From Candidatus Thiothrix moscowensis (GTDB taxonomy: Bacteria > Pseudomonadota > Gammaproteobacteria > Thiotrichales > Thiotrichaceae): DNA of 64,000 bases. Where the stretch lies: assembly GCA_016292235.1 (NCBI GenBank), contig JAEHNX010000017.1:574-64573 (forward strand), in the 5' to 3' direction. Shown here in pieces: positions 7,733-17,276 of the stretch; position 1 is the first letter of the stretch, and each line of letters begins with the position of its first letter. Below the pieces are notes generated by a model that made no database searches, was not told the DNA's origin, and saw only the letters and a list, made by a program, of their open reading frames with translations. The position numbers and the translations under genes were made by a program.

Positions 7733-8020
<288 letters not shown>

Positions 8021-8046
8021 TTTTCCTGCCAGTTTTACCTGTACTG

Positions 8047-8066
8047 ACGCCCGCTGTTGCGGGCGT
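8047..8066. terminator. Hairpin between the convergent ferredoxin and peroxidase genes
   Basis: ACGCCCGC-TGTT-GCGGGCGT 8-bp stem. Confidence 0.55.
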
Positions 8067-8074
8067 TGCCGTTT

Positions 8075-9262
8075 TCAGAGGATGCGCAAAAAGCTGAGCA
8101 ACTGGTGCTTTTCGGTGACATCCAGCTCAATGGTTGGCAACTCATTGTCACGTCGCTGCCCGGTTTGACGGGATGCTTCCACATAATAATCCACCACTTC
8201 TTCCAGCGTTGCCATGCGCCCGTCATGAAAATAGGGGGCGGTTTGTGCCACATTGCGCAAGCCGGGAACCTTGAAAGCCCCCGCAAGCGCATGACGGCTG
8301 CGTGACAGGAATTTCAGCTCACCACAATCGTCGTCGCTTGCGTCACTGTATTCACCCAGACAGTTGAAACGGTCAGTCAGGATGGCATCCAGCACGGCTG
8401 CCCGTCCGCTGTCTTGCCCGAGGCTGCCAGTACCGATGTTCTGGAAAGTCTGGTTGCTGAGCAAAGGGCCGGAATGGCACAGGATGCATTGCGCCTTGCC
8501 GATAAACAGGCGTGCCCCGGCAGCAGCTTCCGGGGAAAGTGCTGTTTGCGGCAGGTTGTCAAGGGCATTGGCAGGTGGCGGCAGGCTGTTGACATAGGCG
8601 GCAACGGCCTTGCCCAGATGGGCGAAAGTACGGTCAACCTGCTGGCGTTGCTGGCTATCCATCTGTTTCCATGCCTGTAACTGCGTCAGCGTACCGTCGG
8701 GGCTGGCATCTTCCGGCAGGTGTTGCCACCACTCACTGTCAGTCGGGGTGACAAACAGTTGGGTAAATTGCTGGCGGTAGTGTGGGTCTTGCAGCAACAG
8801 GCGGATAATGCGGGTACGGGTCATGCCGTGTTCTGCCGGGTTTTCCAGGGGGGCAAGGGCTTGTGACCACAGACTGTCCTTGCGCCCATCCCAGAAAAAC
8901 CAGTCGTTGTAGGCAACACCGGGCAGGGCAGGGGTATTGCGTGTGCCGCGTGCCAGTGCTTCCGCCACGGTTTTGCCATCGCTGAAAGCCTTGTCTGGCT
9001 GGTGACAGGTAGCACAGGCAACCTTGCCATTGCGGCTGAGGCGTTGGTCAAAGAATAGTTGCCTGCCGAGATCAACCGCTGCCGGATGGTGCAGGACGGC
9101 GTTGGAAGCATCCTGTAGCGCAGGCAGGTTTTGCAGGCGCAGGGTTTGTAGGATGGCAAGTTCCTGTTCATTCCACGTGCTGCTGTCTTTTTCCGTCTGC
9201 CATGCCCAGCCTGTCAGCAATGTACTGGCGAGCATGACAGCCACCAGCCAGCCTGTTTTCAT
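8075..9262 (-). CDS. Di-heme cytochrome c peroxidase superfamily protein, MauG/MbnH-like
   Basis: Signal peptide; CATCH (9002-9016) and CILCH (8474-8488); FFWDGR; FKVPGLRN..TAPYFHDG..TLEEVVDYY; ATG coupled to the upstream stop (TGATG). Confidence 0.88.
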   Translation of the reverse strand: MKTGWLVAVMLASTLLTGWAWQTEKDSSTWNEQELAILQTLRLQNLPALQDASNAVLHHPAAVDLGRQLFFDQRLSRNGKVACATCHQPDKAFSDGKTVAEALARGTRNTPALPGVAYNDWFFWDGRKDSLWSQALAPLENPAEHGMTRTRIIRLLLQDPHYRQQFTQLFVTPTDSEWWQHLPEDASPDGTLTQLQAWKQMDSQQRQQVDRTFAHLGKAVAAYVNSLPPPANALDNLPQTALSPEAAAGARLFIGKAQCILCHSGPLLSNQTFQNIGTGSLGQDSGRAAVLDAILTDRFNCLGEYSDASDDDCGELKFLSRSRHALAGAFKVPGLRNVAQTAPYFHDGRMATLEEVVDYYVEASRQTGQRRDNELPTIELDVTEKHQLLSFLRIL

Positions 9263-9660
9263 CACAGCGAAAACCGGAAGACAACCTTTTCTGGTTGTGT
9301 ACCGTTATCCAGCAGGAATCCCAGTACCCATTCACCCGGCATACTGAATTTCAGGCCATCAATGCGGTATGTGCCGTGTGTGTCGGTGGGAATGGCTTGC
9401 GGTGCGGTTGGCAGGCCGTGCCCGTGGGTCGGCATTCCGCCATCAACCGCCACCAGCAGGTTGGTAGGTAAGGCTTGTGAACTTTGCAGGATCAGCTTGC
9501 ATTCCTGAAATGCACCCGGTATCGGTGCAGAGGCACACGACAGGGTAGCCTGATACGTGCCTTTGTCGCTGGGCTGTTGCAGATGCCAGGCATGGTCGGG
9601 GTCTGCGCCACAGCCTGCCAGCAGCAGGCCAAGGGTCAGGGTGAGCAATGTTTTTGGCAT
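9262..9660 (-). CDS. YtkA/FixH-like lipoprotein, candidate copper chaperone
   Basis: Lipobox LAGC; DGGMPTHGHG and FSMPGEW motifs. Confidence 0.75.
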   Translation of the reverse strand: MPKTLLTLTLGLLLAGCGADPDHAWHLQQPSDKGTYQATLSCASAPIPGAFQECKLILQSSQALPTNLLVAVDGGMPTHGHGLPTAPQAIPTDTHGTYRIDGLKFSMPGEWVLGFLLDNGTQPEKVVFRFSL

Positions 9661-9683
9661 GGTTGTTTGCTCCTATCAGGTTT

Positions 9684-11999
9684 TCAGAAACGGTACTCGA
9701 AATAGGCCGGGTTTGCCGTAACATTCGGATAAGCGTCCTCTGCATCCCCTCCCAACGCACGGTTGTTACCATGGAACACGACCCGCAAGCGGGCAGGGTT
9801 GCCCAGCCAACTGCGCGGCAGGCTGAATTCGGCAGTTTGCCCGTTAATGGCGTAAGTGCTTGTACCTTGCTGTGTCCAGCTCCAGCTTGTGCCATCGCCG
9901 CTGTAACGCCACAGGGTGCTGCCTTCCAACAGGTATTCCGCCCCCACTGCACCACGCTGGTAGCCGCTGGCGGGGTTGCTGTCTGTATCCAGATAGACCT
10001 GATAGCCCCAGAAACCACTGGTGTTGACGTTGTTGCGGGTACGGTAGGCCAGCCACAGATTGCTACTATTGTGCGCCATCCAGCCTTCCAGCCAGTCAAG
10101 CGGGTTACTGGTTCCGCTGACATCGGCAGGGTCTGTACCGAATGAAGTCAGGCCGTTCCAGTCAGTGAGATTGCCGTCTGTTGTCAGGCTGCTGACCGGG
10201 TTGCTGACACCGCTGGTGCTGCCGCCACTGGCTGTATACATCTTGTAAGTGAAGTAACGGGTAGTAGCGCTATTGCTGAAAGCTCCATCCGGGTAGATGT
10301 CCTTGGCATCGCCACCAAACGCGATGTTGTTGCCCCAGAAAAACAGGCGCAATTCGGTACTGTTGCCCAGCCAGCTACGCGGGAAACTGAATTCTGCCAC
10401 GTTGCCGCTGACCTGATGGGTCAGGCTGCCCTGGTGTGTCCAGCTCCAGCTTGTACCGTCGCCGCTATAGCGCCACAGGTTGCTGCCTTCCAGCAAGTAG
10501 TCGGCTCCCAGTGCGCCGGTACGGTAGCCGGTGGTGCTGCTGGCATCTGTATCCAGATAAGCCTGATAGCCCCAGAAGCCGCTGGTATCAATCGTGCCCT
10601 TGGTCTTGTAGGCCAGATAGACACGGGAGGCGTCATTGGCCATCCAGCCTTCCAGCCAGTTGAGTTTGTTGCTGGTTCCACTGACATCATCCGGGTCAGC
10701 ACCAAACGAACTCAAGCTACTCCAGTCGGTGAGACTGCCGTTGACACTGATGCCGCTGCCATTGTTGGAAACCGTGCCGCCAGCAGGAGGTGGTGGCGGT
10801 GGTGGGGTGGTTGCGCCGGTTTCATTGCTGTCACTGAGTGGATTCCGGTTGTGCCAGTCACGCGGGGTGATGCGGAAATGTGTCCAGTGCGTATCCATGC
10901 GCGGGGCATCTTCGGCACGCGGCATGTGGTAGAAGGTGACGGAAGGCCACACCACCAGGTCTTGCCCGACCAGGCTTTCACCATTCACAAAGGTGCTCAG
11001 GTCAGCAGCGCAGCCATTGGTGGTCGGGTTGTGCGAGGCAAACAGCTCGCAATTTTTTTGCCGGGTGACGTAAAAGTCGTAATGGGTGAAAGGCTCACTG
11101 CTGGGGCCTTCGTCCTTTTGCCCGGATTCGTTCAACTGGATGTCATAGGAGATGGGCAGGTTCTTGCTGTTACGCAAGCTGGTATCCAGTACCCGCCAGA
11201 ACCGTAATTTGGCAGGATCCACATTGCGGGCGGCTTCCGTGCTGAAGCGGGTATGGGTGCGGGAAGTCTTGCCAGCAGTTTGGGTATGGTCGATTTCCTC
11301 CACCGCATCATCGTTGCTGGTTGCGCCCAGATCGAAATCCAGTTTCCAGAAAAAGTTGTGCAGGTGGGCAATGCCAACCTTGTTGCTTTCCAACAGCCAG
11401 CCATGTTGGGCGATACTAGCAGTGCCGAAGCGTTGCAAGGCTCCAGTTGCGCCCACACCCGGTTCGATAGCGCCATCATCCAGAAAACGCCATTCGGGAA
11501 TGTAGTTGTATGCGCCAATGGCTGACACGCTGAACAGGCTGAGGGCGTCACCCTGCAAGCGGTCAGCGTCGACGCTAAAGGCATCATCGCGGCTTGTCAC
11601 CTGTTTGCAGATGATGTTTTTGCCGAGGTAGGCGAGCCGTTCACCACCGGGGCATTCCTCGGCAGCTAGATCCTTGATGTAACCGCCACCCAGCCCATAG
11701 TCGGAAACATCATGGTAGCGTGCGCCGTTGTCATCGTAAGGTACGTGGATTTGCGCCATGGCTGCCTCGTGCAACACCATCTGGCGCGTGCCGTTGCGCG
11801 GGGTGTAATGGATGTGGTGCAACACCACGCCTTCCCGGTTGCGGTGTTCCCAGCACATGTCCCAGCGTGCCTGATTGGGCAGGGTGGTTTCGATGTAATA
11901 CGTATCAGCACAGAATTCAGCCGCCTGGGCGGGGATGCTGCCCAGCCCGGCAAGTGTCAGCAGGGCAGCCAGTGGATAACGGAAATGGTGCAGTTTCAT
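9684..11999 (-). CDS. Secreted copper amine oxidase-like catalytic (D4) domain with poly-Pro linker and two DOMON/CBM9-like repeats
   Basis: Signal peptide; VPYDD..RYHDVSDYGLG (Asp97), IGAYNY (Tyr164), HLH (212/214), YHMPRAED (His358), PRDW. Confidence 0.85.
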   Translation of the reverse strand: MKLHHFRYPLAALLTLAGLGSIPAQAAEFCADTYYIETTLPNQARWDMCWEHRNREGVVLHHIHYTPRNGTRQMVLHEAAMAQIHVPYDDNGARYHDVSDYGLGGGYIKDLAAEECPGGERLAYLGKNIICKQVTSRDDAFSVDADRLQGDALSLFSVSAIGAYNYIPEWRFLDDGAIEPGVGATGALQRFGTASIAQHGWLLESNKVGIAHLHNFFWKLDFDLGATSNDDAVEEIDHTQTAGKTSRTHTRFSTEAARNVDPAKLRFWRVLDTSLRNSKNLPISYDIQLNESGQKDEGPSSEPFTHYDFYVTRQKNCELFASHNPTTNGCAADLSTFVNGESLVGQDLVVWPSVTFYHMPRAEDAPRMDTHWTHFRITPRDWHNRNPLSDSNETGATTPPPPPPPAGGTVSNNGSGISVNGSLTDWSSLSSFGADPDDVSGTSNKLNWLEGWMANDASRVYLAYKTKGTIDTSGFWGYQAYLDTDASSTTGYRTGALGADYLLEGSNLWRYSGDGTSWSWTHQGSLTHQVSGNVAEFSFPRSWLGNSTELRLFFWGNNIAFGGDAKDIYPDGAFSNSATTRYFTYKMYTASGGSTSGVSNPVSSLTTDGNLTDWNGLTSFGTDPADVSGTSNPLDWLEGWMAHNSSNLWLAYRTRNNVNTSGFWGYQVYLDTDSNPASGYQRGAVGAEYLLEGSTLWRYSGDGTSWSWTQQGTSTYAINGQTAEFSLPRSWLGNPARLRVVFHGNNRALGGDAEDAYPNVTANPAYFEYRF
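9720..10751 (-). repeat. Two ~155-aa tandem domains in the amine oxidase-like protein
   Basis: Both carry G.L.DW, FG.DP.DVSGTSN, FWGYQ.YLDTD, YLLEGS.LWRYSGDGTSWSW, AEFS.PRSWLG (about 10284-10751 and 9720-10187). Confidence 0.9.
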
Positions 12000-12017
12000 G
12001 TGGGTTTCCTCCCTGCC

Positions 12018-13178
12018 TCAAAACGGGTTTTGCGAATGCCAGTCACGTGGCAGGAGCTGGAAGCTGCTCCAGACCGTGCCGATACGGTTGCTGTCTTCGC
12101 TGCGGGGCAGGTGGTGGTAACTCTGCTTGTACCAGACCACCACGTCTTGCTGGTTGAGGCTTTCGCCGTTCACAAACTGGCTGACATTGCCGGTGCAGCC
12201 GCTGGTTAGGTTGTTGGCAGCGTATTTTTCGCAGGCGTTGTAGCGGGTGAAGAAGACGTCTTGTGCCAGCCATGCTTCGTTGGCGCTGTTGGCGCGGCTC
12301 TGGTCGTAACGGGTCGGCACTAGTTCGTAGGACAGGTTGCCAACCGCTCCGTTGTTGAGGATGCCATCACGCACCCGCCAGAAGCGCTTGGTTTCCGGGT
12401 CGAAGGTGCGCCCGGTTTCCGTACCGACTGTGGTGATGGCTTTGGTTTTGCGCAGGCGGTCACTGCTGGGTGTGCTGGTGATTTCTTCCACCATGTCGTT
12501 GGCATGGGTGGTGTCAATGTCAAAATCCAGCCGCCACAAGGCATGGTCGGTGAAACCGGTGGCAATGTTGCCGCTTGCCATAGCAGGCCAACCGTACTGG
12601 CTGTTGCTGGCATTGACGATGGGCAACTCGCCGCTAAGACCTAGGGCGGGTTCAATCGTGCCGTTTTCGTAAAAGCGCCAGCGTAGCGTGTAATTGCGTG
12701 CGCCGATTTGTGACTGGCTGGCAAGTTCCCACAACTGCCCTTGTCGTTGGCTGGTGTACTTGTAGTGGTAGCCGTGGTCGCGGGTAGTGGCACACAGCAC
12801 GTTACGCCCGCCACTGGCGTGGAGTGTTCCACCGGGGCAAGCACTGGCAGGCAGGGTTTGCAGGTTGGTTCCACCCAACCCGGCTTCCGTGGTCAGGAAC
12901 AGCGGGGTGACGGAACCATCATCCAGCGCAGTTTCCAGTTGGGAAAGGCTGGCTTCACCCAGTACCCGGCGCTGGGCATGGGCAGGTGCTTTGTAACTGA
13001 TTTGGGAAAGCACTACACCTTCTGCCTGACGGGTAGTCCAGCACAGGTTCCAGCTTGCCCCGGAAGCGAAGGTTTTGCTGAGGGTTTGCCCGTTACAGGT
13101 ACTGGTGGGGGCAGCGTTGACGGGCGCTTGCCACCAGACCAGCAGGCAGAGTGTCAGCAGGGTATGACGGTATCGCAT
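12018..13178 (-). CDS. Secreted copper amine oxidase D4 paralog lacking catalytic residues
   Basis: Colinear with the 9684-11999 N-terminal part (EGVVL, CPGG, WRF.E.G.IEP, FWRV, FVNGESL, PRDW) but IGARNY, FTDH and no catalytic Asp. Confidence 0.82.
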   Translation of the reverse strand: MRYRHTLLTLCLLVWWQAPVNAAPTSTCNGQTLSKTFASGASWNLCWTTRQAEGVVLSQISYKAPAHAQRRVLGEASLSQLETALDDGSVTPLFLTTEAGLGGTNLQTLPASACPGGTLHASGGRNVLCATTRDHGYHYKYTSQRQGQLWELASQSQIGARNYTLRWRFYENGTIEPALGLSGELPIVNASNSQYGWPAMASGNIATGFTDHALWRLDFDIDTTHANDMVEEITSTPSSDRLRKTKAITTVGTETGRTFDPETKRFWRVRDGILNNGAVGNLSYELVPTRYDQSRANSANEAWLAQDVFFTRYNACEKYAANNLTSGCTGNVSQFVNGESLNQQDVVVWYKQSYHHLPRSEDSNRIGTVWSSFQLLPRDWHSQNPF

Positions 13179-13190
13179 GAGTGTTTCCCC

Positions 13191-13859
13191 CTAAAAACCG
13201 ATGTTCTGGGTGATCACACCCGCAGACAGGTTGACGATCGGGCTGATTTCAAACACCACCGAGTCAGCGGTGTACAGCAATACCTGGGCGCAGCGGTGCA
13301 AACCGCATTGCCGGGATGCGGCATTAAGCTGTTCCGGCAGGCTGGAGGCATGGAACACAAACGCCTTGACCTGAAGCTGCTGGTAGAGATCGGTGAGCGG
13401 TTGCCCGGTGATGCGGCGGAATTCGCGTTCCAGCAGGCTGCGTTGCTCGTCATCGGCAAAAATCAGGGCGGCAGCACGATGCAGCTCGTTGTCAGTCAGG
13501 GGCAATTGCAGGTTTTGCTGACGCTGGGTGGAAAGCACCTGATTGGTATCCAGATTGATGAGCGTGAGGATGGTTTCGTTGCTGCTGTAATCGTAGGTGT
13601 AAACGTCCGCCAGCCGTGCTGTTTGCCCCTTTTTGTTGGGGTGGCGCTCGACCAGTAGCAGTTCGGGAGCAGGCGTGGTGTTGACAGACAGGGAACGTTG
13701 GGTGTTGGCAGGGGAGGCAGCCGTTGCCATGCTGGTGGCGCGGCTGAGTTCGGCCGGGTTGAGGGGATCCATTGTGCCTGCCTGGGCAGACTGCAAGGCG
13801 GCAACCAGCAGGACAGATGCCAGTGGTAGCCAAGGTTTGAGGCAAAACAGTTTGTTCAT
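13191..13859 (-). CDS. Secreted protein resembling the copper amine oxidase N2/N3 domains
   Basis: Signal peptide; MDPLNPAEL, RLADVYTYDY...INLDTNQVLS, QLPLTDNEL..A..LIFAD; CGLHRC. Confidence 0.7.
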   Translation of the reverse strand: MNKLFCLKPWLPLASVLLVAALQSAQAGTMDPLNPAELSRATSMATAASPANTQRSLSVNTTPAPELLLVERHPNKKGQTARLADVYTYDYSSNETILTLINLDTNQVLSTQRQQNLQLPLTDNELHRAAALIFADDEQRSLLEREFRRITGQPLTDLYQQLQVKAFVFHASSLPEQLNAASRQCGLHRCAQVLLYTADSVVFEISPIVNLSAGVITQNIGF

Positions 13860-13982
13860 GACGAAAACCGTACAATCGTTATTTGGTTATTGGTACGGCG
13901 TTCAGTCTAGGGGGGGAGTAGGTGAGCCACCATCGCAGGCTTGCCCACCCGTTTGATTTTTATGATGGACGGTAAAATAAAT

Positions 13983-14459
13983 TTATTTGTTGTTGCCGGT
14001 TTCCGTTTTGGCAACATTGAACACCATCAGGACATTGCGCTTGGCATCCATCAGGTGTAACTGGTTGAGGATAATGCAGTACTGGTTGGCTTTGCCCAGT
14101 TCCTCGAAATAACGCTGTTCCAGTTGACCGCCTTCACCCATGCAGGCCATTTTGGTTGCACCGATCGGGCCTACACCAAACACGCCATCCCCACTGGCAG
14201 TGTAGCTGGCAAAGTAACGGTTGCAGCCGGAATAGCCCGCTACCCGGTCACTGTCAAAATTGATGGAGATGGGTGGGGCAAGTGTGAGCGTATCCTTGCC
14301 CAGTTTGTGCAGTTCCCACTGGGTTCCTGCCACGCTCATGGCGGGTTTGGGGTTGGCTTGGGTATCCAGATTGCTACACGCAGACACAATCGCCAGACCC
14401 AGCAAAACGATCAGGATTTGACCTGTCACGGATGACAGGAGTTTTTTTAGCATGGACAT
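13983..14459 (-). CDS. META-domain (HslJ-like) lipoprotein
   Basis: Lipobox VSAC; W.L, GYSGCNRYF, GPIGATKMAC, EQRYF. Confidence 0.88.
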   Translation of the reverse strand: MSMLKKLLSSVTGQILIVLLGLAIVSACSNLDTQANPKPAMSVAGTQWELHKLGKDTLTLAPPISINFDSDRVAGYSGCNRYFASYTASGDGVFGVGPIGATKMACMGEGGQLEQRYFEELGKANQYCIILNQLHLMDAKRNVLMVFNVAKTETGNNK

Positions 14460-14605
14460 ACACCGCTCCTCGTGGTTTTCTTGTTATGGTTATGGAGTTG
14501 CAAATAGCCGAAAAGTTGCAATTTAACCAGCAATCATGCGCCGCTTGCCTGTTTGGCGCAAAACAGGCTGACAAACTGCATGGTAAACGAATTCAGGAGG
14601 TCGTC

Positions 14606-15635: not shown

Positions 15636-17272
<1,637 letters not shown>

Positions 17273-17276
<4 letters not shown>

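What the first reader, a model, noticed from the sequence alone, without database searches (positions are those of the whole stretch)
12018..13178. Adjacent paralog has lost the TPQ Tyr, the catalytic Asp and the HxH copper pair: a pseudo-enzyme subunit
Seen by manual alignment to the neighbour: Tyr164->Arg161 (IGARNY), Asp97->Leu95, His212/His214->Phe209/Asp211. The third His is kept (YHHLPR, His355/356), a new His212 appears, the six Cys align, and the ORF is intact with a signal peptide. Inference: it is a non-catalytic partner forming an asymmetric heterodimer (CuAOs are obligate dimers), or a ligand or metal binder with a remodelled Asp/His site.
Basis: partly seen in the sequence, partly recalled or inferred. 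Interest (0 to 1): 0.7.

Follow-up and report, generated by a model that had tools for sequence, protein, structure and literature searches.

The report
Dead copper amine oxidase partner subunit
This intact, selection-maintained gene encodes a copper amine oxidase catalytic domain that has lost every catalytic residue. It always sits next to a still-active sister gene, so it is most likely the silent half of an asymmetric enzyme pair, something not described for this enzyme family.

Summary
ORF 12018-13178(-), here called A (386 aa), has the copper amine oxidase (CuAO) D4 fold. It has Leu95 for the Asp base, Arg161 for the TPQ Tyr, and Phe209/Asp211 for the HxH pair. Its neighbour B (9684-11999) keeps all of these. 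The loss is ancient:
- In 83 A-type and 92 B-type genes from 76 genome loci, no A has the catalytic set, and about 89 of 92 B have it.
- A is under purifying selection (dN/dS about 0.10-0.15).
- The gene order is almost always N (a stand-alone D2/D3 protein), then A, then B, even at 32-39% identity.
- All 49 carrier genomes in the order hold at least two D4 copies.
- Some Chloroflexia have N+B without A.

An A:B model scores 0.93 against controls at 0.00. That may be recall of solved CuAO homodimers, and it cannot separate A:B from A:A or B:B.

My best reading (0.6) is that A is a non-catalytic protomer of an A:B heterodimer. The kept "third His" (H356) is variable, while the neighbouring H355 is invariant and lies in the modelled interface. 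Binding, metal content and transcription are untested. The scan also noted this same stretch as a five-gene operon.

The parts
12018..13178 (-). Gene A: secreted CuAO D4-domain paralog without catalytic residues (386 aa). This is the finding.
   Evidence: ORF. PF01179 at E 7.8e-32. AlphaFold model pLDDT 82.7; the top Foldseek hits are AGAO, ECAO and pea CuAO, TMq 0.72-0.80 across the top 50. dN/dS is 0.10-0.15.
13113..13178 (-). Predicted Sec signal peptide of A (residues 1-22, ...VNA/AP).
   Evidence: Read from the sequence. A22 and P24 are nearly invariant in orthologs. No signal-peptide predictor was run.
12894..12896 (-). Leu95 codon, at the column of the catalytic Asp base (B Asp97, AGAO D298).
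   Evidence: A-type orthologs have L/V/I/M and others here, never D (0 of 83). B-type has D in 89 of 92.
12696..12698 (-). Arg161 codon, at the column of the TPQ precursor Tyr (B Tyr164).
   Evidence: In A-type the column is R48/Q8/Y6/I5/H4... of 83, so it is not conserved. In B-type it is Y in 90 of 92.
12543..12554 (-). Phe209-Thr210-Asp211-His212, replacing the H-x-H copper ligands (B His212/His214).
   Evidence: F is conserved (79/83). The D column reads D51/N12/T6/S5/A4.... The H212 column reads H53/N12/Y10/S6.
12111..12116 (-). His355-His356. H356 is the canonical third copper ligand column and is variable in the family. H355 is invariant in 83 of 83 A orthologs and lies in the modelled A:B interface.
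   Evidence: H355 is not kept in the most distant dead relatives.
12387..12389 (-). Lys264 codon: invariant in the non-redundant A set, variable in B (M 36%), and in the modelled interface.
12426..12495 (-). Beta-hairpin arm (about residues 228-251) with an A-specific two-residue insertion that includes a conserved Arg241.
   Evidence: Strands E228-237 and E244-251 in the model. R241 is at 0.87 in A, where B has a gap in 83%. Residues 233-247 are in the modelled interface.
13186..13191 (-). Shine-Dalgarno-like GGGGGA for A, overlapping the stop codon of gene N. The N-A gap is 12 nt.
9684..11999 (-). Gene B: the catalytically competent-looking D4 paralog (Asp97, Tyr164 in A-Y-N-Y, His212/214, His358) plus a Pro-rich linker and two C-terminal repeats (771 aa).
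   Evidence: The residues are conserved in 89-90 of 92 B orthologs. A GGGAGGA site lies 7 nt before the ATG, 18 nt after A's stop.
13191..13859 (-). Gene N: a stand-alone secreted protein with the CuAO D2+D3 fold (222 aa).
   Evidence: NCBIfam PRK11504, residues 9-130, E 2e-7. Model pLDDT 81.6. All top 50 PDB Foldseek hits are CuAOs over about 210 columns. It sits upstream of A in nearly all loci.
9262..9660 (-). YtkA(CtaK)-like lipoprotein (132 aa, LLLAGC lipobox, MPTHGHG motif).
   Evidence: PF13115 at E 2.4e-6. The YtkA/CtaK family is implicated in copper-centre assembly (PMC13344008). It is present in about 45 of 76 loci.
8075..9265 (-). MauG/MbnH-like di-haem enzyme (396 aa). Its start overlaps the YtkA stop by 4 nt.
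   Evidence: PF03150 at E 2.3e-41. TIGR04039 (MbnH) and TIGR03791 (MauG) both match, but below their cut-offs.

Best explanation
Gene A encodes a secreted, folded, catalytically dead copy of the CuAO D4 domain. It serves as the non-catalytic protomer of an A:B heterodimer with the neighbouring active-looking paralog B. The D2/D3 domains are supplied in trans by the upstream protein N.

Shown:
- A has the D4 fold but lacks the Asp base, the TPQ Tyr and two of the three copper His. The third is not conserved.
- The loss is shared by all A orthologs and is old.
- A is under purifying selection.
- A is co-inherited next to B.

Inferred:
- A keeps the very large D4-D4 interface and the two hairpin arms. 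[quoted passage not shown] A would therefore stabilise and shape the single active site of B, giving a hard-wired one-active-site dimer.
- The old active-site pocket of A is filled by hydrophobic residues (Leu95, Phe209) and is otherwise free to drift.
- In this window the YtkA-like lipoprotein (a copper chaperone family) and the MauG-like di-haem enzyme more probably serve B's copper and cofactor site than A.
For: 1. Residue losses.
2. Family-wide pattern: 0 of 83 A-type have the set, against about 89 of 92 B-type.
3. Of 132 cluster representatives, 100 are live and 30 dead. The dead label needs only 2 changes on the tree.
4. dN/dS: A 0.10-0.15, B D4 domain 0.09-0.11.
5. Synteny: N-A-B in nearly all of 76 loci across Thiotrichales, Methylococcales, Pseudomonadales, Woeseiaceae, Acidobacteriota and Caldilineaceae. 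The same order holds in three dead relatives at 32-39% identity. Spacing is tight and both genes have Shine-Dalgarno sites.
6. Phyletic asymmetry: all 49 carrier genomes of 107 in the order have at least 2 D4 copies. Of the two loci without an adjacent B, the one genome that could be checked has B elsewhere. N+B without A exists in Chloroflexia.
7. The catalytic set forms one clade (support 99), and the A and B subtrees mirror each other, including pairs duplicated together. r(A,B) = 0.89 and partial r(A,B|N) = 0.65.
8. A:B complex model: ipSAE 0.93, best control 0.00, about 275 contacts. That mark was reached by 51 of 78 solved complexes and 2 of 108 mismatched pairs.
9. Constraint is lost selectively. 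Twenty-one positions are at least 90% conserved in B but below 50% in A, including the Asp base, TPQ Tyr and His2, and they are mostly off the interface. Of the 39 positions at least 95% conserved in A, only K264 and H355 are not shared with B, and both lie in the modelled interface.
10. Published structures: the D4 arms contribute to the partner's active site (PMC3382800).
Against: - No binding, metal or activity data exist.
- The complex score may be recall of solved CuAO homodimers. It cannot tell A:B from A:A or B:B, because only one job was allowed.
- Interface positions are not more conserved than the rest of A (p = 0.73).
- In two loci (Leucothrix sargassi L002, Thiolinea disciformis L023) A stays with N, YtkA and MauG while B is absent from the cluster. 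A is therefore linked at least as tightly to those genes as to B.
- Extra stand-alone B copies exist (L074, L078, L081), so B need not pair with A.
- One N gene serves two A-B pairs in the five-gene clusters, so stoichiometry is unclear.
- H355 is not kept in the most distant dead relatives.
- Transcription is not shown.
Confidence: 0.6

Rival explanations
1. A is the substrate, or a co-substrate, of the MauG-like di-haem enzyme. It would carry a new protein-derived cofactor or copper site, loaded by the YtkA-like chaperone, making A a re-purposed protein rather than a dead one. The precedents are preMADH/MauG, MbnP/MbnH and MopE/CorA with their kynurenine-copper sites.
For: MauG-like and YtkA-like genes follow the pair in about 45 of 76 loci. 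In L002 and L023 the cluster is N-A-YtkA-MauG with no B. A has a few family-specific conserved residues: K264, H355, W303, Y313, Y350. MauG-family enzymes are known to modify partner proteins (established knowledge; CorA paper PMC3912023 listed).
Against: There is no conserved His/Met/Cys cluster at the old site; R161, D211 and H212 all vary. Many N-A-B loci have no adjacent MauG or YtkA: Methylococcales, the second clusters, the plasmid copy L010, and L087-L089. B, with its non-canonical A/S-Y-N-Y motif and full copper site, is the more obvious client. H355 is lost in distant dead relatives.
Confidence: 0.12
2. A acts on its own, as a monomer or homodimer, as a non-enzymatic binding protein. 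It could be a periplasmic or cell-surface receptor for an amine or polymer that uses the old substrate channel, independent of B.
For: The fold and selection are maintained. The peripheral-site Asp residues D218/D220/D345 and the disulfide Cys are kept. A stays in the cluster when B is elsewhere.
Against: The pocket-lining columns are exactly the ones released from constraint (21 positions), which argues against a conserved ligand site. A is next to B in about 70 loci, including very distant ones. No carrier genome in the order holds fewer than two D4 copies.
Confidence: 0.13
3. A is a transient assembly or maturation factor for B. It would hold B during copper loading, cofactor formation or secretion and then be released, leaving a mature B homodimer.
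For: The synteny and co-inheritance evidence is the same as for the main reading. Stand-alone B copies and N+B-only systems show that B can exist without a dedicated A.
Against: A retains the whole D4 architecture, including both arms, with about 275 modelled contacts. That looks like a permanent interface rather than a chaperone surface. No precedent in CuAO biogenesis is known to me; TPQ formation is described as self-processing (established knowledge; review PMC3382800 read).
Confidence: 0.1
4. A is a decaying duplicate (a pseudogene in the making) with no function.
For: All catalytic residues are lost.
Against: ORFs are intact in 83 orthologs spanning several phyla. dN/dS is about 0.13. 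Thirty-nine positions are at least 95% conserved, and gene order is conserved.
Confidence: 0.01

Closest known systems
Canonical copper amine oxidases (TPQ/Cu; AGAO, ECAO, HPAO, pea CuAO; Pfam PF01179)
   Same: Same D4 beta-sandwich fold with hairpin arms (Foldseek TMq about 0.78). The conserved WR/KLDFD and QDxVVW segments are kept, with the Asp residues that I recall as the peripheral metal site. A very large dimer-type interface is modelled.
   Different: There is no Asp base, no TPQ Tyr, and no HxH pair, and the third His is not conserved. D2/D3 are encoded by a separate gene. The partner is a paralog rather than an identical chain. All solved CuAOs are homodimers (PMC3382800).
Neighbour B and its orthologs (the live D4-only CuAO-like clade)
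   Same: 37% identity, same length of D4 domain, same six Cys, same signal-peptide architecture, same operon.
   Different: B keeps D/Y/HxH/H in about 89 of 92 orthologs and usually carries C-terminal surface or repeat domains. A never has the catalytic set and has no extension.
Dead-paralog activator subunits ('prozymes', e.g. trypanosomatid AdoMetDC/prozyme and deoxyhypusine synthase pairs), from my own knowledge, not tested here
   Same: A duplicated enzyme in which one copy lost its catalytic residues, stays under selection, and is thought to function only as a heteromer with the live copy.
   Different: Those are cytosolic eukaryotic enzymes of unrelated folds. For A neither heteromer formation nor activation has been measured.
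MauG/preMADH, MbnH/MbnP and CorB/CorA-type pairs (a di-haem enzyme that modifies a partner protein)
   Same: A MauG/MbnH-like di-haem gene lies in the same operon.
   Different: A shares no fold or motif with MADH beta, MbnP or MopE/CorA. The MauG-like gene is missing from many N-A-B loci. Its client here is unknown and is more plausibly B.

Membership tests
Copper amine oxidase (TPQ/Cu enzyme, EC 1.4.3.21/22) | D4 catalytic-domain fold / PF01179 match | tested here: met
   PF01179 at E 7.8e-32, above the cut-off. Foldseek top hits are CuAO structures, TMq 0.72-0.80, E about 1e-24.
Copper amine oxidase (TPQ/Cu enzyme, EC 1.4.3.21/22) | Precursor Tyr in the N-Y-D/E-Y motif that becomes TPQ | tested here: not met
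   Arg161 sits at that column. Only 6 of 83 A orthologs have Tyr there, and those lack the copper ligands.
Copper amine oxidase (TPQ/Cu enzyme, EC 1.4.3.21/22) | Three His copper ligands (HxH plus a distal His) | tested here: not met
   Phe209 and Asp211 replace the HxH pair. His356 is present here, but the column is H/Y/T/I/V/F across orthologs.
Copper amine oxidase (TPQ/Cu enzyme, EC 1.4.3.21/22) | Catalytic Asp base | tested here: not met
   Leu95 sits at that column. Asp is never found there in 83 A orthologs.
Copper amine oxidase (TPQ/Cu enzyme, EC 1.4.3.21/22) | D2-D3-D4 in one chain, forming a homodimer | tested here: not met
   A starts D4 right after the signal peptide. D2/D3 are a separate gene, N. 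Oligomeric state was only modelled.
Pseudoenzyme partner subunit (dead paralog working with a live paralog) | Homolog of an enzyme with its catalytic residues lost | tested here: met
Pseudoenzyme partner subunit (dead paralog working with a live paralog) | Maintained by purifying selection over long times | tested here: met
   dN/dS is 0.10-0.15, though dS is about 0.9-1.4 and so near saturation. ORFs are intact across several phyla.
Pseudoenzyme partner subunit (dead paralog working with a live paralog) | Physical complex with the live paralog | tested here: inconclusive
   The model scores 0.93 against 0.00 for controls, but it may be memory of CuAO homodimers and does not separate A:B from A:A or B:B. 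Synteny and mirrored trees are supportive.
Pseudoenzyme partner subunit (dead paralog working with a live paralog) | Changes the activity, stability or specificity of the live partner | not testable with these tools
   Needs enzymology of B with and without A.
Client proteins of MauG-family di-haem enzymes | Genetic linkage to a MauG-like gene | tested here: inconclusive
   Linked in this window and in about 45 of 76 loci. Absent from Methylococcales loci, second clusters, and L010 and L087-L089.
Client proteins of MauG-family di-haem enzymes | A conserved target residue (Trp/Tyr) and a resulting cofactor or metal site | not testable with these tools
   A-specific conserved W303, Y313, Y350, K264 and H355 exist. 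No coordinates or MS data are available to test for clustering or modification.

The most novel reading that the evidence does not exclude
The N-A-B trio is an obligate, hard-wired one-active-site copper amine oxidase. A would be a prozyme-like dead subunit whose hairpin arms (with the conserved Arg241 insertion, K264 and H355) complete and tune B's only active site. D2/D3 would be added in trans. In Thiotrichales the non-canonical A/S-Y-N-Y cofactor of B would be matured with help from a MauG-like di-haem enzyme and a YtkA-type copper chaperone. That would be the first heteromeric CuAO, and a natural test of the old half-of-the-sites question in this enzyme family.
Probability: 0.3. Interest if true: 0.8.

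Novelty: new variant of a known kind. Interest (0 to 1): 0.62.

Why it matters
Every structurally characterised CuAO is a homodimer with two identical active sites (PMC3382800). Whether the two sites communicate (half-of-the-sites reactivity) has been debated for decades. A widespread bacterial lineage that pairs one live and one dead D4 subunit, and splits off D2/D3, would be a natural one-site CuAO. It would allow direct tests of what the second subunit contributes structurally. It would also add a clear bacterial extracytoplasmic example to the pseudoenzyme-partner theme.

The size of the family matters for annotation. About 176 clusters at 50% identity match at E of 1e-30 or better, and 30 of the 132 full-length representatives among the best 150 hits are dead. 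The source names seen for A relatives read 'primary-amine oxidase', 'copper amine oxidase' or 'hypothetical protein', which would mis-call function.

Tried and rejected
1. Interface conservation. Residues of A in the modelled interface are not more conserved than the rest (entropy 1.79 against 1.76, p = 0.73). This is uninformative, because the buried core could not be separated without coordinates.
2. Transcription. Four activated-sludge libraries labelled as RNA hold the operon at about 98% identity, but as contigs of up to 25-32 kb at flat depth. That looks like DNA carry-over or mislabelling, so it gives no evidence of expression.
3. Rooting. The best 150 representatives never reached canonical full-length CuAOs. 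The trees are therefore unrooted, and 'A is derived' rests on B sharing the canonical residues.
4. Leucothrix sargassi (L002). I could not check for an unlinked B because that genome is not held.
5. Literature. Searches for 'copper amine oxidase' with pseudoenzyme, with MauG/kynurenine, and for Thiothrix with 'amine oxidase' found nothing on this family.
6. Remodelled Asp211/His212 metal site. Rejected as a family feature, because both columns vary.
7. Pseudogene decay. Rejected.
8. A:A and B:B complex models for comparison could not be run; the cap was one job.
Full report
WHAT IS THERE

Five co-oriented genes lie tightly packed on the minus strand of the window:
- N, 13191-13859, 222 aa.
- A, 12018-13178, 386 aa. 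This is the finding.
- B, 9684-11999, 771 aa.
- A YtkA-like lipoprotein, 9262-9660.
- A MauG/MbnH-like di-haem protein, 8075-9265.

Gaps are 12 nt (N to A), 18 nt (A to B) and 23 nt (B to YtkA), with a 4-nt overlap between YtkA and MauG. A and B each have a strong Shine-Dalgarno site 7 nt before the ATG.

A and B both match Pfam PF01179, the CuAO enzyme domain, at E 7.8e-32 and 3.4e-45. N matches only the N-terminal 120 residues of NCBIfam PRK11504 (primary-amine oxidase) at E 2e-7.

CHECK OF THE OBSERVATION

A and B are 37% identical over 358 residues. The phmmer alignment of B to the Arthrobacter enzyme places:
- B Asp97 on the catalytic base D298.
- B Tyr164 on TPQ382.
- B His212/His214 on H431/H433.
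- B His358 on H592.

In A these columns are Leu95, Arg161, Phe209, Asp211 and His356, and His212 follows Asp211. The six Cys correspond between the two proteins.

Two refinements apply. B's own motif is A-Y-N-Y rather than N-Y-D/E-Y. In the 'kept' HH pair, H356 is the ligand column and H355 is its neighbour.

IS IT A FAMILY TRAIT OR A LOCAL ACCIDENT?

A has 449 database homologs at E of 1e-5 or better, from Thiothrix, Thiolinea, Leucothrix, Cocleimonas and others.

I fetched 76 genome loci, called ORFs and typed them with phmmer. The table compares 83 A-type and 92 B-type D4 genes.

| Column | A-type (83) | B-type (92) |
|---|---|---|
| Asp base | never Asp (L38/V13/I9...) | D 89 |
| TPQ Tyr | R48/Q8/Y6/I5/H4... 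| Y 90 |
| First His of HxH | F 79 | H 89 |
| Second His of HxH | D51/N12/T6/S5/A4... | H 89 |
| Third His | H44/Y23/T11... | H 90 |
| Residue before third His | H 83 of 83 | Y75/H16 |

The loss of the catalytic set is therefore universal in the A lineage. The replacement residues, Phe209 aside, are not conserved.

In a search of 1.84 billion cluster representatives, 176 clusters matched at E of 1e-30 or better. Of 132 full-length representatives, 100 carry all five canonical residues and 30 carry two or fewer. On their tree the 'dead' label needs only two changes, and one is not excluded.

SELECTION

Against six Thiothrix orthologs, A has dN 0.13-0.18, dS 0.9-1.4 and dN/dS 0.10-0.15. B's D4 domain gives 0.09-0.11 and N gives 0.10-0.24. 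dS is close to saturation, so these ratios are approximate.

Thirty-nine positions of A are at least 95% conserved across a set made non-redundant at 80% identity.

NEIGHBOURHOOD AND PHYLETIC PATTERN

Gene order N-A-B holds in nearly every locus. This covers Thiotrichales, Methylococcales, Pseudomonadales, Woeseiaceae, an Acidobacteriota MAG and a Caldilineaceae MAG. About 45 loci continue with YtkA-like and MauG-like genes. Pseudomonadales loci have MauG only. Methylococcales loci have neither.

Several Thiothrix and Thiolinea genomes carry a second five-gene cluster, A'-B'-N-A-B, without MauG.

Three dead representatives that are only 32-39% identical to A again sit between an N homolog and a live D4 gene, with stop/start overlaps in L087 and L088.

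In the window's order, 49 of 107 genomes carry the family. Every carrier has at least two D4 copies (2, 3, 4 or 7) and none has one. The trait is patchy, present in 12 of 27 genomes of the window's own genus. The window's genome has exactly one A and one B.

Two loci lack an adjacent B: L002 (Leucothrix sargassi) and L023 (Thiolinea disciformis). T. disciformis encodes a 62%-identical B on another contig. The L. sargassi genome is not held, so it could not be checked.

Conversely, two Chloroflexia genomes have N plus a live B and no A anywhere, and stand-alone extra B copies exist (L074, L078).

The dependence is therefore one-sided. In the genomes I could check, A is not found without B, but B is found without A.

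PHYLOGENY

In a 137-row tree, the sequences with the full catalytic set form one clade with support 99, and all dead ones lie on the other side. The A and B subtrees have the same internal structure, clade for clade, including the pairs duplicated together in the five-gene clusters.

Pairwise distances correlate at r(A,B) = 0.89. After removing N, partial r(A,B|N) = 0.65, against 0.33 and 0.38 for the other two partials. This is suggestive only, because paralogs of one fold may share rate patterns.

STRUCTURE

The AlphaFold model of A (pLDDT 82.7, pTM 0.83) is a D4 sandwich with long hairpins. Its best PDB matches are AGAO, pea and E. coli CuAOs, with TMq 0.72-0.80 across the top 50.

The model of N (pLDDT 81.6) hits only CuAOs among its top 50 PDB matches, over about 210 columns. 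That corresponds to the D2+D3 pair.

The cassette is therefore a CuAO taken apart: D2/D3 in one gene, one dead D4 and one live D4.

COMPLEX MODEL

Mature A with the D4 part of B scored ipSAE 0.93 in three runs, with about 275 contacts. The best of three controls scored 0.00. In the tool's calibration that mark was reached by 51 of 78 solved complexes and 2 of 108 mismatched pairs.

CuAO homodimers are in the PDB, so this may be recall. It cannot distinguish A:B from A:A or B:B. It shows only that A still looks like a D4 protomer able to make the canonical interface.

WHERE THE CONSTRAINT LIES

Twenty-one positions are at least 90% conserved in B but below 50% in A. They include the base Asp, the neighbouring Asp, the TPQ Tyr, the second His and other residues. 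Only three of the 21 fall in the modelled interface. This is the pattern expected when an active site is released from selection and the scaffold is kept.

Of A's 39 most conserved positions, 37 are shared with B. These include the Trp/Gly core, the six Cys, and the LDFD and QDxVVW Asp residues. Only K264 and H355 are A-specific, and both are in the modelled interface.

A's first hairpin arm carries an A-specific two-residue insertion with a conserved Arg241, which is also in the interface.

Overall, interface positions are not more conserved than the rest of A (p = 0.73). The interface argument therefore rests on a few residues and is weak.

MECHANISM PROPOSED

In solved CuAOs the D4 hairpin arms of one monomer embrace the other. 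They form part of the back wall of its active site, and they are thought to affect dimer stability and substrate specificity (PMC3382800).

I infer three things:
- A supplies this half of the dimer to B without contributing a second active site.
- A's own pocket is plugged by Leu95 and Phe209.
- N docks as D2/D3 in trans.

YtkA/CtaK-family proteins are implicated in copper-centre assembly (PMC13344008), and MauG-family enzymes modify partner proteins. Here both more plausibly serve B, which has a full copper site and an unusual cofactor motif. The two loci where A, but not B, stays beside them keep open the rival that A itself is the client.

COMPARISON WITH WHAT IS KNOWN

A is a homolog of CuAOs by sequence and fold, but it fails four defining features of the enzyme: the Tyr, the three-His site, the Asp base, and the single-chain D2-D3-D4 homodimer. 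It should not be filed or annotated as a primary-amine oxidase.

Functionally it resembles dead-paralog partner subunits ('prozymes'). That comparison comes from my own knowledge and was not tested here. I found no paper on this family.

LIMITS

- Nothing here measures binding, metal content, modification or transcription.
- The RNA-labelled libraries that contain the operon hold it in contigs of 25-32 kb, so they are not evidence of expression.
- The trees are unrooted.
- No model coordinates were available for spatial tests.

EARLIER SCAN NOTES

The scan's notes on this same window describe the operon, B's motif, the N gene and the MauG-like gene in the same way. I re-derived the first three independently. 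They did not change my reading.

Noticed in passing
window 11502-11513 (B residues 163-166): B's cofactor motif is A-Y-N-Y rather than the canonical N-Y-D/E-Y. Across 92 B orthologs the residue before the Tyr is A65/S20 and the residue after it is N47/Y13/H7/V7..., so it is never the canonical pair, while the copper ligands and the Asp base are kept. Together with the MauG-like gene, this raises the question of whether the cofactor or its biogenesis differs from TPQ.
   Followed up: partly
L073, L080 (Chloroflexia MAGs); genomes G002, G003: These genomes have only N plus one live D4 gene and no dead paralog anywhere in the genome. This is probably the architecture that preceded the A/B duplication.
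   Followed up: partly
L003, L025, L026, L049, L051, L056-L058, L060, L062: Second clusters with the order A'-B'-N-A-B: two dead/live pairs sharing one N gene, with no YtkA or MauG. They occur in genomes that also hold the N-A-B-YtkA-MauG cluster. Those genomes reach 7 D4 copies.
   Followed up: partly
L010 (Thiothrix fructosivorans plasmid pTfr446): A second N-A-B copy (A 75% identical to the window's, B only 465 aa) lies on a 446-kb plasmid without YtkA or MauG. The chromosome (L009) carries the full five-gene cassette. This hints at mobility and fits the patchy distribution (12 of 27 genomes in the genus).
   Followed up: no
window 9720-10805 (C-terminal half of B): After a poly-Pro linker come two ~190-aa aromatic-rich repeats with no Pfam match. 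In other taxa B instead carries He_PIG, Big_7/Big_9 or PKD domains. The live subunit is therefore generally decorated with surface or binding modules, and the dead one never is.
   Followed up: no
window 7800-14600 in runs X2-X5: Activated-sludge libraries labelled TRANSCRIPTOMIC RNA-Seq contain a roughly 98%-identical strain of this region in contigs of up to 25-32 kb at flat depth. That suggests substantial DNA in those libraries.
   Followed up: no
window 15636-17276 (+): A 546-aa membrane protein ORF contains a long (Val/Phe-Ala)n run (AVAVAVAV...) that looks like a hexanucleotide microsatellite.
   Followed up: no
window 13983-14459 (-): A META-domain lipoprotein (PF03724, E 1.6e-21) lies directly upstream of the cassette on the same strand. 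I did not examine whether it is linked to the cassette in other genomes.
   Followed up: no
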